Part shown: one piece after another, positions 50,401 to 53,400 of the stretch | Layout: the number at the start of each line of letters is the position of its first letter | Position numbering within the stretch: position 1 is the stretch's first letter | From: Escherichia coli | Lineage (GTDB): Bacteria; Pseudomonadota; Gammaproteobacteria; Enterobacterales; Enterobacteriaceae | Direction: 5' to 3' (one strand) | DNA length: 64,000 nt | Assembly (NCBI RefSeq): GCF_044647545.1 | Contig: NZ_CP172818.1 | Program-made: the position numbers

Positions 50401-53400
50401 AATTCGCGATGTATTTGATTTCCAGTCACATACTCATTTTTTGCATCGGATAGATGGTTATCGGCGGCCTATATTGCTGAGCCGTAGTGAGCACAATATT
50501 CTGTTTGATTTTGCACGTTCACGCCGCGCTCTGGCGCAATTTAATCCACATGTTTTGTATCTTTCTTATCCATTTGGCGGATTTAATGACAAAGCCGTGA
50601 AGGCAGCAAAAGAAGCCGGATTTCACCTGGCGGTGACGACCATGAAAGGCAAAGTAAAACCGGGGGATAATCCGTTGTTACTAAAACGACTTTATATCTT
50701 AAGAACGGATTCGCTGGAGACGATGTCGCGGCTGGTGAGTAACCAGCCGCAGGGATAACAATCAGGCAACCTGTACCGGAATCGCTTTCGCGGTACGTTT
50801 CATTTCGTTGTCGCCTTCAAAATAGGCGACGTTGGGTCGCCAGGTGCGAGCTTCTTCATCTGGCATGGTAACGAAGCTGGCGATGATGACAATATCGCCG
50901 ACGCTGGCGCAGTGGGCCGCCGCACCGTTAACGGAAATAATTCTCGAACCGCGTTCTGCCGCGATGGCATAGGTGGAGAAACGCTTGCCGTTGGTCACAT
51001 TCCAGATATCAATGGCTTCGTTTTCGAGAATACCAGCTGCGTCAAGAAAATCCTGGTCAATGGCGCAAGAACCTTCATAGTGCAGGTCCGCATGAGTCAC
51101 TTTCACGCGGTGGAGTTTGCCCTGCAGCATCGTGCGAATCATAACTTCTACCTTTCTACCCTGTCGTTAACGAAGCAGGCGATGCCTGCTTTGAGGAAAT
51201 TCTCACGCAGTATTGCCCGATTTTTGTTTAGTGTCTACTCATCTGACGGCATTTGCATCAGCAGTTTGCGTACCGTGCCGAAGCGTGCCATGTAACGCCT
51301 GTAACCAATTGAAATTTCTCTGAACGCTGCTCGGTAAACACTAAAGAGGCGGCTGACGACGGCGCGCCTTGACTGGATACTGCCTTCACGCAAGACAGCA
51401 CGGAAGGCAGGGAAGATGGATGCACCGAGTACCACACCGCATGATGCGGTGTTTAAACAATTTTTAATGCACGCGGAAACGGCTCGCGACTTTCTGGATA
51501 TCCATTTGCCAGCGGAGCTACGCGAACTGTGTGACCTCGACACGCTGCATCTTGAGTCGGGGAGTTTTATTGAAGAAAGCCTGAAAGGGCACAGCACTGA
51601 CGTGCTCTATTCCGTGCAAATGCAGGGTAATACGGGCTATCTACATGTTGTAATTGAACACCAAAGCAAGCCGGACAAAAAAATGGCCTTTCGCATGATG
51701 CGTTATTCTATTGCTGCCATGCACCGGCATCTGGAGGCAGATCACGATAAGCTGCCGCTGGTGGTGCCGATTTTGTTTTATCAGGGCGAGGCCACGCCTT
51801 ATCCACTCTCAATGTGCTGGTTTGATATGTTTTACTCGCCGGAGCTGGCGCGACGCGTCTATAACAGTCCTTTCCCGCTGGTGGATATCACTATCACACC
51901 GGATGACGAAATCATGCAACATCGGCGGATTGCGATTCTCGAACTGCTGCAAAAACATATTCGCCAGCGCGACTTAATGTTATTGCTGGAGCAACTGGTC
52001 ACGCTGATTGACGAAGGGTACACTAGCGGAAGTCAGTTAGTTGCCATGCAAAACTATATGCTGCAACGCGGTCATACTGAACAAGCGGATTTGTTTTATG
52101 GTGTGCTGAGAGACAGGGAAACGGGAGGGGAGTCTATGATGACGCTGGCGCAGTGGTTTGAAGAGAGGGAAAAAGAAAAAGAAGACAGGAGGTAAGACAG
52201 GAGGTAATACAAGAGGTAAGACAGGAAGTAAGACAGGAATTCGCCCTGCGTTTTCTGAGTAAAGGGATGTCTCGGGAAGACGTTGCAGAGATGGCAAATT
52301 TATCTCTTGCTGAGATTGATAAGCTAATTAACTCTAACTAAGTTGTCTACGATATGAATAATTGCTTACAGATGACGTGGCAATGAATAACTGGCGCCAT
52401 CAGCCGTAGCGCCAGTTAAATATTACGCCAGTTCGACGATTTTGTTGTCGATCAGGCGAGCATCGCCAAGCCAGGCGGCTACCAGAATCACCGCTCGTTT
52501 GCTGTTTTCAGAGATTTCCAGCAAGGTGTCGGCATCGCGAATCTGAATATCATCGGCGCGGAAGCCTTTTTCATTCAGTTCTTGCCCGGCAATAGTAATA
52601 ATTTCATCGAGATCCCGTTCGCCAGCCTGCAATTTGTCGGCAATCGAACTTAAAACCTTGTACAGGCCGGGCGCAATTTTGCGTTGTTCCGCCGTCAGAT
52701 AACCGTTACGGGAACTCAGCGCCAGACCGTCTTTGGCGCGCATAATCGGTACGCCGATAATCTCAATATCAAAGCCCATATCGGCAACCATTTTGCGGAT
52801 CAGCGCCAGTTGCTGAAAATCTTTTTCACCGAAGCAGGCGATGTCCGGCTGGACCAGGTTGAACAGCTTGCTGACAATCGTCGAAACGCCGCGAAAATGT
52901 CCCGGACGGCTGGCACCTTCCAGCATGGTGGAAAGACCGGGAACATCAACATAGGTGTGGGTTTCTGTACCGTTCGGGTAGATCTCTTTTACCGAAGGCG
53001 CAAAAACTAAATCCACTTTACGTTTGTTCAGCTTTTCGCAGTCCTCTTGCAAGGTCCGTGGATAACGTGCCAGATCTTCCGGGCGGTCAAACTGCATTGG
53101 GTTAACGAAAATACTGACGACGACCACATCGGCGCGGGCTTTGGCTTCGTCGACCAGCTTCATATGGCCATCGTGCAGGTTACCCATGGTGGGCACCAGC
53201 GCCACGCGCTTACCTTCCATACGCAGGCGGCGAATTTGCTGACGCAGCAGCGGCAGGGTTTCGATAATTAACACAACGTCACTCCTTAATGGAAACTGTG
53301 TTCTTCGCCCGGATAAACGCCGGACTCCACTTCAGCCATATACTGCCGCACAGCCGCGCGGATGTCGCCCGTTTCGGCGAGGAAATTTTTGGCGAATTTA

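What the first reader, a model, noticed from the sequence alone, without database searches (positions are those of the whole stretch)
50756..50764. Convergent yadE and panD stop codons only 3 bp apart
yadE (+) ends at 50758 and panD (-) ends at 50762 with no room for a terminator between them, so the two transcripts must overlap at their 3' ends or terminate inside the partner gene. The guaC/hofC pair (19210/19245) instead shares a single hairpin that overlaps the hofC stop. Such arrangements can give antisense interference.
Basis: seen in the sequence. Interest (0 to 1): 0.15.

Follow-up and report, generated by a model that had tools for sequence, protein, structure and literature searches.

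The report
panD mRNA end hairpin inside yadE
Two E. coli genes that face each other really do stop only 3 bases apart, and published RNA-end maps show that the panD message ends at a conserved hairpin inside the last codons of yadE; this is an ordinary, already catalogued kind of transcript overlap.

Summary
yadE (+) ends with TAA at 50756-50758 and panD (-) ends with TGA at 50764-50762, leaving a 3-bp spacer (CAA). RefSeq annotates E. coli the same way. In 46 of 60 Enterobacteriaceae sequences (59 other genomes plus the window) that carry a yadE 3' end, the spacer is 1-6 bp.

Two independent published 3'-end maps of E. coli MG1655 place the dominant panD mRNA end 39-42 nt past its stop codon. 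That is window ~50720-50724, inside yadE and 4-8 nt 3' of a 9-10 bp GC-rich hairpin (50728-50750) that has no U tract. A bicyclomycin experiment places a Rho-dependent termination region about 0.5 kb further into yadE antisense.

My analysis adds three points. The hairpin is kept across genera by compensatory changes. It tolerates G·U pairs mainly on the panD-sense strand. It persists where yadE has been deleted.

The best reading is that panD transcription runs into yadE, Rho terminates it, and exonucleases trim the RNA back to this protective hairpin.

No yadE 3' end has been mapped, and a terminator-like hairpin inside panD is not conserved. The pair is already listed as a "convergent excludon" (NAR 2025). 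Antisense interference is untested. Interest is low and the feature is already known.

The parts
49529..50758 (+). yadE coding sequence (409 aa, polysaccharide deacetylase family); stop TAA at 50756-50758
   Evidence: ORF list; RefSeq annotation; Pfam Polysacc_deac_1 at residues 228-366
50759..50761 (.). 3-bp spacer (CAA) between the two convergent stop codons
   Evidence: Sequence; the spacer is 1-6 bp in 46 of 60 sequences with a yadE 3' end
50762..51142 (-). panD coding sequence (126 aa, aspartate 1-decarboxylase); stop TGA at 50764-50762
   Evidence: ORF list; Pfam Asp_decarbox; full-length match to 126-residue PDB chains
50728..50750 (-). GC-rich hairpin GCGGCUGGU-UACUC-ACCAGCCGC with no U tract, about -18 kcal/mol. 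It lies in yadE codons 400-408 and begins 12 nt after the panD stop. It is the proposed 3'-end protective stem-loop of panD mRNA.
   Evidence: Inverted repeat I3; folds. RNAalifold predicts the same helix. 98.8% of cells are paired, 3 pairs show compensatory changes, and 0 of 500 shuffles reach the observed values. The 31-nt segment is identical in 5340 of 5482 E. coli records. The hairpin is retained where yadE is lost.
50720..50724 (-). Mapped steady-state 3' end of panD mRNA, transferred from MG1655 146272-146276. It lies 39-42 nt past the panD stop and 4-8 nt 3' of the hairpin.
   Evidence: Adams et al. 2021 Term-seq, three conditions; TRS paper suppl. data. The coordinate offset was checked against the printed 61-mer.
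50246..50719 (-). Antisense-to-yadE stretch read through from panD. The Rho-dependent termination region is reported at MG1655 145798 (about window 50246).
   Evidence: Adams et al. suppl. file 2: Rho score 7.18, p = 8e-27. There is mild C>G on this strand, with + strand GC skew of +0.11 to +0.26. The resolution of the Rho score is ~800 nt.
50773..50809 (+). Weak terminator-like hairpin (GUACCGGAAUCGCUUUCGCGGUAC, -9.7 kcal/mol) plus a U-rich tail, inside the last codons of panD. It is a possible end or pause site for yadE transcripts in E. coli only.
   Evidence: It is not conserved: there is no covariation between the Arg and Val third codon positions, and fold energies are the same with or without a yadE neighbour.
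19217..19246 (.). Comparison case: the guaC/hofC shared intergenic hairpin, which overlaps the hofC stop (19245-19247)
   Evidence: Sequence; guaC 3' end at MG1655 114526 and Rho score 4.8

Best explanation
yadE and panD are a tightly packed convergent pair whose 3' signals are embedded in each other's coding sequence.

RNA polymerase transcribing panD passes the stop codon and enters yadE in antisense. Once the RNA is no longer translated, Rho loads and terminates within roughly the next 0.5 kb. 3'-to-5' exonucleases then trim the RNA back to a stable, U-less, GC-rich hairpin (window 50728-50750) that lies in yadE codons 400-408. The result is a sharp panD mRNA end at ~50720-50724.

The hairpin is therefore dual-use sequence. 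On one strand it encodes the YadE C-terminus (SRLVSNQPQ). On the other strand it is the protective 3' stem-loop of panD mRNA.

What is shown: the geometry, the mapped 3' end, the bicyclomycin-sensitive read-through, and the conservation and covariation of the hairpin. What is inferred: that the end arises by trimming rather than by termination at the hairpin, that the hairpin stabilises panD mRNA, and where yadE transcripts end. The yadE transcripts probably run antisense into panD, with no conserved signal.
For: 1. Geometry.

2. Term-seq 3' end at MG1655 146275/146275/146276 (-) in LB OD 0.4, LB OD 2.0 and M63, with 125366, 41034 and 68010 reads. An independent TRS call gives 146272/146273, with hairpin dG -18.5 and a longest U run of 2.

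3. Rho termination region at 145798 (-), antisense to yadE, with Rho score 7.18 and p = 8e-27.

4. Dar & Sorek 2018 describe exactly this class. Rho-dependent transcripts end just 3' of stable stem-loops that lack U tracts, including stem-loops inside downstream coding regions, and these loops protect against PNPase and RNase II.

5. Conservation. In 57 distinct sequences, 98.8% of stem cells pair, and 3 pairs carry double compensatory changes (20 cells; 0 of 500 shuffles reach this). RNAalifold finds the same helix. At pair 33-41 the counts are GC 15, GU 21, AU 21 and AC 0 (Fisher p = 3.5e-4, ignoring phylogeny).

6. Strand asymmetry. There are 32 G·U cells on the panD strand, which would be C·A mismatches on the yadE strand. 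The hairpin is more stable on the panD strand in 50 of 60 sequences.

7. Synonymous-codon entropy of yadE is lowest in its last 15 codons: 0.77, the minimum of 79 windows.

8. The 31-nt hairpin segment is identical in 97.4% of E. coli records. By contrast, the 76-nt segment around it differs in 86% of records.

9. Where yadE is deleted (L004) or absent (L016, L044), a near-identical hairpin remains 12-14 nt after the panD stop.

10. Where an extra intergenic hairpin exists (Kluyvera, gap 32-35 bp), the internal hairpin is weakened.
Against: - The experimental data are from K-12 MG1655, not from this strain. The sequence from the panD stop to the mapped end is identical, with one synonymous difference in the last panD codon.
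- The Rho score has ~800-nt resolution. It could partly reflect an independent antisense transcript inside yadE.
- No exonuclease-mutant or half-life data for panD were seen.
- Sequences are phylogenetically related, so the shuffle and Fisher tests overstate independence.
- At pair 30-44 the intermediate is C·A on the panD strand, which is U·G on the yadE strand. This occurs in 5 sequences, the opposite of the general asymmetry.
- In Escherichia the repeat is a perfect palindrome and folds equally well on both strands.
- K. pneumoniae, L056 and L061 keep a strong internal hairpin despite having an extra intergenic one.
Confidence: 0.72

Rival explanations
1. The hairpin is itself the terminator. 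It would be either a non-canonical, U-less intrinsic terminator or an 'overlapping bidirectional terminator' of the Ju et al. 2019 / Wang & Liu type. In that model the stem-loop pauses polymerases from both sides, and head-on plus trailing collisions release them, so both transcripts end flanking one shared hairpin.
For: - The inverted repeat is perfect in E. coli and folds on both strands (-18.5 and -19.5 kcal/mol).
- The panD end is sharp and lies 4-8 nt from the stem.
- The collision model needs a stem-loop in the overlap region of a convergent pair.
Against: - Bicyclomycin raises downstream coverage about 7-fold, whereas that terminator class is described as Rho-independent.
- No yadE 3' end is detected at or near the hairpin.
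- An end 5 nt past the hairpin on the + strand would fall at ~50755. That removes the yadE stop codon and gives a non-stop mRNA.
- yadE seems too weakly expressed for frequent collisions, and the collision model works best for highly expressed pairs.
- Outside Escherichia the stem is weaker on the yadE strand.
Confidence: 0.15
2. The hairpin is an accident of coding. The YadE C-terminal peptide is conserved for protein reasons, the inverted repeat is a by-product, and exonucleases simply stop at whatever stable structure they meet. There would be no selection on the RNA structure.
For: - YadE residues 380-409 are 96-98% conserved at the amino-acid level.
- The U-less tail and flanks are fixed by codons.
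- The I7 hairpin in panD shows that coding sequence can produce fortuitous stems.
Against: - Synonymous sites are also unusually constrained: the lowest entropy of 79 windows.
- Changes are compensatory, including synonymous-synonymous pairs (L402 CTG to TTA with Q406 CAG to CAA in Kluyvera) and V403I paired with N405 AAC to AAT.
- The disallowed A·C combination is never seen at pair 33-41.
- The stem survives deletion or absence of yadE in three lineages.
Confidence: 0.1
3. Regulatory excludon, on top of either mechanism above. Overlapping transcription makes expression of the two genes mutually antagonistic. The routes would be polymerase collision or RNase III cleavage of the ≥35-bp duplex. 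In effect, constitutive panD read-through would damp yadE.
For: - The pair is in the E. coli 'excludome'.
- panD read-through extends hundreds of nt antisense into yadE unless Rho stops it.
- yadE gives no detectable 3' end in five data sets, while panD is abundant.
Against: - ExcludonFinder scores coverage overlap only, and no expression anticorrelation or RNase III data for this pair were found.
- With a 3-bp gap, overlap is geometrically unavoidable, so its detection says nothing about regulation.
- Rho limits the antisense RNA.
- The paper's remark that the two genes share a pathway is not backed by anything I could check.
Confidence: 0.25

Closest known systems
Protective 3' stem-loops of Rho-dependent transcripts (Dar & Sorek 2018, NAR; PMC6061677)
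   Same: A stable stem-loop lies immediately 5' of a precise steady-state 3' end. There is no U tract, read-through is bicyclomycin-sensitive, there is mild C>G downstream, and the element can lie inside the coding region of the downstream gene.
   Different: I could not see panD in that paper's own table, because the supplement is not held. Exonuclease dependence is untested for panD. Here the stem-loop sits in the last codons of a convergent gene and shows cross-genus covariation, which that paper did not examine.
Convergent excludons (ExcludonFinder, NAR 2025; PMC12288877)
   Same: yadE-panD is explicitly listed. It is a convergent pair with overlapping RNA-seq coverage and a short intergenic distance.
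   Different: The defining functional property, mutually exclusive expression or RNase III processing, has not been shown for this pair. Its gap of 3 bp is far below the 95-nt mean reported for E. coli excludons.
Overlapping bidirectional terminators driven by RNAP collision (Ju et al. 2019; Wang et al., bioRxiv 10.1101/2022.10.23.513370)
   Same: A convergent pair with one stem-loop in the overlap and a sharp 3' end close to the stem.
   Different: That class is described as Rho-independent, with mapped ends on both strands. Here only one strand has a mapped end, and read-through is Rho-sensitive.
Canonical shared intrinsic terminators between convergent genes (e.g. hpt/can, 40-bp gap, in this same window)
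   Same: One hairpin serves a convergent pair, and the 3' ends map next to it.
   Different: hpt/can has room for an intergenic hairpin with U/A tracts on both sides. yadE/panD has no intergenic room and no U tract.

Membership tests
Rho-dependent transcript with protective 3' stem-loop (Dar & Sorek 2018) | Energetically stable stem-loop immediately upstream of the dominant steady-state 3' end | tested here: met
   The hairpin at 50728-50750 has dG of about -18 kcal/mol. The published 3' end lies 4-8 nt downstream.
Rho-dependent transcript with protective 3' stem-loop (Dar & Sorek 2018) | No uridine-rich tract after the stem | tested here: met
   The 15 nt after the stem are GACAUCGUCUCCAGC, with 3 U. 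The longest U run is 2. The terminator scan does not flag it.
Rho-dependent transcript with protective 3' stem-loop (Dar & Sorek 2018) | Read-through downstream increases when Rho is inhibited | tested here: met
   Published DirectRNA-seq with and without bicyclomycin gives a region at 145798 (-), Rho score 7.18, p = 8e-27. The resolution is ~800 nt and the data are from MG1655, not this strain.
Rho-dependent transcript with protective 3' stem-loop (Dar & Sorek 2018) | Longer 3' tails appear in pnp/rnb exonuclease mutants | not testable with these tools
   No such data for panD were accessible.
Canonical intrinsic terminator | GC-rich hairpin followed directly by a 7-8 nt U tract | tested here: not met
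   There is no U tract on the panD strand. On the + strand the same hairpin is followed by AGGGAUAACAAUC.
Convergent excludon | Neighbouring genes on opposite strands whose transcripts overlap | tested here: met
   Geometry. The panD 3' end lies inside yadE. The pair is listed in ExcludonFinder Table 1.
Convergent excludon | Overlap causes mutually exclusive expression or RNase III-dependent processing | not tested
   No expression-anticorrelation, p19-dsRNA or rnc data for this pair were found in the texts held.
Overlapping bidirectional terminator (Ju et al. 2019) | 3' ends of both convergent transcripts flank one hairpin | tested here: inconclusive
   Only the panD end is reported. No yadE terminus appears in five data sets. 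I could not access the Ju et al. SEnd-seq tables.
Overlapping bidirectional terminator (Ju et al. 2019) | Independence from Rho | tested here: not met
   Read-through is bicyclomycin-sensitive on the panD strand.

The most novel reading that the evidence does not exclude
The last ~9 codons of yadE would be a long-maintained dual-function sequence. They encode the YadE C-terminus and, on the opposite strand, a panD mRNA 3'-end stabiliser kept by compensatory substitutions across Enterobacteriaceae and retained after yadE loss. Rho-limited panD read-through into yadE would also act as a built-in damper of yadE expression. On this reading the 3-bp spacing is selected rather than incidental.
Probability: 0.3. 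Interest if true: 0.35.

Novelty: already known. Interest (0 to 1): 0.15.

Why it matters
The practical value is mainly for annotation and engineering. The functional 3' end of panD, a pantothenate/CoA pathway gene often manipulated for beta-alanine production, lies inside yadE. Deleting or recoding the yadE 3' end could therefore alter panD mRNA stability. A yadE knockout phenotype could likewise be a panD effect.

It is also a clean small example of synonymous sites in a protein tail being constrained by an RNA structure used by the gene on the other strand. It does not open a new question, because the mechanism class, the mapped end and the overlap are all already published.

Tried and rejected
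- **Rfam scan of 49000-52500, E ≤ 1.** The only hit was a chance sR39 match at 18 bits against a gathering score of 50. No known RNA family is present.
- **Promoter/terminator consensus scan.** The counts were not above shuffles. It flags neither the panD hairpin nor any convincing terminator.
- **I7 hairpin as the yadE terminator.** This is the + strand hairpin at 50773-50796 with a U-rich tail. I rejected it as a conserved element. The Arg (CGT/CGC) and Val (GTA/T/G/C) third positions do not covary, the predicted folds differ among genera, and mean energy is the same with (-13.8) or without (-12.9) an adjacent yadE. It may still act weakly in E. coli.
- **Looking for a yadE 3' end in published tables.** None appears in Adams et al. 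or the TRS data. There were no occurrences in the TERMITe supplements. No supplements are held for Dar & Sorek 2018, the 3'-UTR valves paper or ExcludonFinder.
- **First literature search.** It used word-start matching and returned 'pandemic' papers. I repeated it with whole-word matching.
- **Genome-wide distribution of convergent-pair gaps.** I did not compute this. Only the 9 pairs in the window were tabulated.
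Full report
**1. What is in the sequence**

The window is Escherichia coli. Positions 50300-51200 are 100% identical to strain FDAARGOS_497 and match 5421 of 5426 complete E. coli genomes over at least 80% of their length.

yadE occupies 49529..50758 on the + strand and ends with TAA at 50756-50758. panD occupies 50762..51142 on the - strand and ends with TGA, read as TCA at 50762-50764. The spacer is the three bases CAA at 50759-50761. RefSeq annotates the same 3-bp gap in FDAARGOS_497 and in a BL21 derivative.

Both stops look genuine. PanD aligns end to end (1-126) with 126-residue PDB chains. The YadE C-terminus and its stop position are conserved across about 55 species, while the stop codon itself varies.

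So is the side remark about guaC/hofC. Those stops lie at 19208-19210 and 19245-19247, and a hairpin at 19217-19246 overlaps the hofC stop.

**2. Is the spacing unusual?**

Nine convergent pairs are annotated across this window. Eight have gaps of 34-98 bp, enough for an intergenic hairpin. yadE/panD is the only exception. I did not compute the genome-wide distribution.

The arrangement is not a quirk of one strain. I fetched 80 panD loci, one per species, across Enterobacteriaceae. With the window, 60 sequences carry a yadE 3' end. In 46 of them the gap is 1-6 bp. This covers Escherichia, Salmonella, Citrobacter, Pluralibacter, Pseudocitrobacter, Enterobacter, Lelliottia, Silvania and the Klebsiella oxytoca group. 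The stops never overlap, and no gap falls between 7 and 31 bp.

Eight sequences have gaps of 32-35 bp that contain an extra intergenic hairpin. These are Kluyvera, K. pneumoniae, one Enterobacter and one Raoultella.

**3. Where the transcripts actually end (published experiments, E. coli MG1655)**

Adams et al. 2021 (eLife, PMC7815308, supplementary file 1) list a dominant Term-seq 3' end on the - strand. It is at 146275 in LB at OD 0.4 (125366 reads) and OD 2.0 (41034 reads), and at 146276 in M63 (68010 reads). It is classed 'primary panD, antisense yadE'.

Their printed 61-mer spans -50 to +10 around the end. I checked this using the can entry. On that basis the end lies 39 nt past the panD stop and 5 nt 3' of the stem GCGGCUGGU-UACUC-ACCAGCCGC.

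The TRS study (Nat Commun 2023, PMC10687069) independently calls 146272/146273. It reports a fold energy of -18.5 kcal/mol and a longest U run of 2.

The MG1655-to-window offset is 95552, so these positions are window 50720-50724, inside the yadE coding sequence. Between the panD stop and this end the window sequence is identical to MG1655. The one difference lies in the last panD codon (GCC versus GCT).

Supplementary file 2 of Adams et al. (with and without bicyclomycin) reports a Rho termination region at 145798 (-), 'antisense yadE', with Rho score 7.18 and p = 8e-27. This is about 0.5 kb further along the panD strand. The resolution is coarse because the method uses 800-nt windows.

No 3' end assigned to yadE appears in either study.

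ExcludonFinder (NAR 2025, PMC12288877) lists yadE-panD, and also the neighbouring rpnC-panC, among 165 convergent pairs whose coverage overlaps in at least half of 58 RNA-seq samples. guaC-hofC is not listed.

**4. The hairpin**

The inverted repeat at 50728-50736 and 50742-50750 is perfect, with 9 bp and a 5-nt loop. It folds on the panD strand with about -18 kcal/mol. It lies in yadE codons 400-408, which encode S R L V S N Q P Q. The next 15 nt on the panD strand (GACAUCGUCUCCAGC) contain only 3 U, so it is not a canonical intrinsic terminator.

Conservation was tested on an alignment of 60 sequences, 57 of them distinct:

- 98.8% of stem cells form standard pairs.
- Three pairs show changes on both sides (20 cells), and no shuffle out of 500 reaches the observed values.
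- Slid registers give only 21-60% pairing.
- RNAalifold predicts the same helix without guidance.

The compensatory events include a synonymous-synonymous pair: L402 CTG to TTA with Q406 CAG to CAA in Kluyvera. Another event pairs V403I with N405 AAC to AAT. At that pair the states are GC 15, GU 21, AU 21 and AC 0 (Fisher p = 3.5e-4, not corrected for phylogeny).

Wobble pairs fall mostly on the panD strand. There are 32 G·U cells there, and these would be C·A mismatches in yadE RNA. The stem is more stable on the panD strand in 50 of 60 sequences, with means of -16.6 versus -14.7 kcal/mol.

There is an exception. At pair 30-44, five sequences have C·A on the panD strand. Three of these are Kluyvera, which carry the extra intergenic hairpin.

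Further support for selection on the structure:

- Synonymous-codon entropy along yadE is lowest in the final 15 codons, at 0.77. This is the minimum of 79 windows; the others range from 0.86 to 1.57.
- Within E. coli, the 31 nt containing the hairpin are identical in 5340 of 5482 records. The 76-nt segment around it differs from the window in 86% of records.
- An Escherichia species whose yadE is reduced to a 107-codon remnant (L004) keeps the hairpin.
- Two genomes in which yadI sits directly next to panD (L016, a Pluralibacter MAG, and L044, Intestinirhabdus alba) keep a near-identical GC hairpin 12-14 nt after the panD stop.

Together these results indicate that the structure is selected and belongs functionally to the panD transcript.

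**5. Mechanism**

The best fit is the class described by Dar & Sorek 2018. In that class, Rho-dependent transcripts terminate diffusely downstream. PNPase and RNase II then trim them back to a stable, U-less stem-loop, which may lie inside a downstream coding region.

All of the testable features are met here: a stem-loop at the end, no U tract, bicyclomycin-sensitive read-through, and mild C>G downstream (+ strand GC skew +0.11 to +0.26 over 50150-50750). Exonuclease dependence could not be checked.

I give this explanation about 0.7.

The main mechanistic rival is termination at the hairpin itself, in particular the collision-driven overlapping bidirectional terminator of Ju et al. and Wang et al.. 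Three things weigh against it. Read-through is Rho-sensitive. No yadE end has been mapped. An end 5 nt past the hairpin on the + strand would also remove the yadE stop codon.

A 'coding accident' reading is disfavoured by the synonymous-site constraint, the compensatory changes and the retention of the hairpin after yadE loss.

**6. The yadE strand**

A terminator-like hairpin with a U-rich tail lies at 50773-50809, inside the last panD codons. Its energy is only -9.7 kcal/mol. It is not conserved, because the relevant third codon positions vary freely without covariation. Fold energies are also the same whether or not yadE is adjacent.

yadE transcripts must reach at least 50758 to be translatable. 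They therefore overlap mature panD mRNA by at least ~35 nt. How much further they run is unknown.

**7. Comparison with what is known, and verdict**

The 3-bp gap has been in the E. coli annotation for decades. The panD 3' end has been mapped in two studies. The Rho region has been mapped. The pair is listed by name as a convergent excludon.

What this analysis adds is modest: cross-genus evidence that the panD 3' stem-loop is a conserved dual-use element within the yadE C-terminal codons. Whether the overlap regulates either gene is untested.

Novelty: already known. Interest: about 0.15.

Noticed in passing
window 51416-52260 (rpnC/yadD): The rpnC ORF in the window is only 259 aa (51416..52195). 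Compared with FDAARGOS_497 (310 aa), the window lacks 13 nt in an imperfect 12-nt repeat tract (AGGTAAGACAGG...), which shifts the frame. FDAARGOS_497 also carries a ~266-bp partial duplication of the rpnC 3' end that is absent here and in BL21. This looks like a strain-variable repeat region, and the window copy may be a pseudogene.
   Followed up: partly
window ~52200-52430 (rpnC / panC junction): This is a second overlapping convergent pair, 1 kb away. rpnC-panC is also in the ExcludonFinder list. Adams et al. report a strong Rho termination region at MG1655 147624 (-), antisense to yadD/rpnC, with Rho score 16.9. Here the intergenic gap is 73-81 bp.
   Followed up: no
window 19217-19246 (guaC/hofC): The shared hairpin is also U-less. 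The guaC 3' end (MG1655 114526) is reported only in M63 medium, 4-5 nt after the stem, with Rho score 4.8. It is probably another Rho-associated protective stem-loop rather than a true bidirectional intrinsic terminator.
   Followed up: partly
L004:2882-3210; L016:2882-2950; L044:2882-2950: Natural losses of yadE. In Escherichia sp. MOD1-EC7003, yadE is internally deleted to a 107-codon remnant. In a Pluralibacter MAG and in Intestinirhabdus alba, yadI lies directly next to panD. All three keep the GC hairpin after the panD stop.
   Followed up: yes
L030, L031, L039, L043, L046, L056, L061, L067 (about 2882-2915 in each): In Kluyvera, K. pneumoniae and a few others the gap is 32-35 bp and holds an additional U-less GC hairpin between the stops. 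In Kluyvera the yadE-internal hairpin is correspondingly weakened, to between -10 and -13 kcal/mol.
   Followed up: partly
window 50300-51200: The yadE-panD segment also matches 61 records labelled as plasmids in the E. coli complete-genome collection. The reason is unknown. They could be F-prime-like elements or mislabelled replicons.
   Followed up: no
window 19200-49529: Coordinates of the window and FDAARGOS_497 differ by 3 bp at guaC (stop at 19210 versus 19207) but agree at yadE. There is therefore a small indel between them, and the window is not exactly that strain.
   Followed up: no
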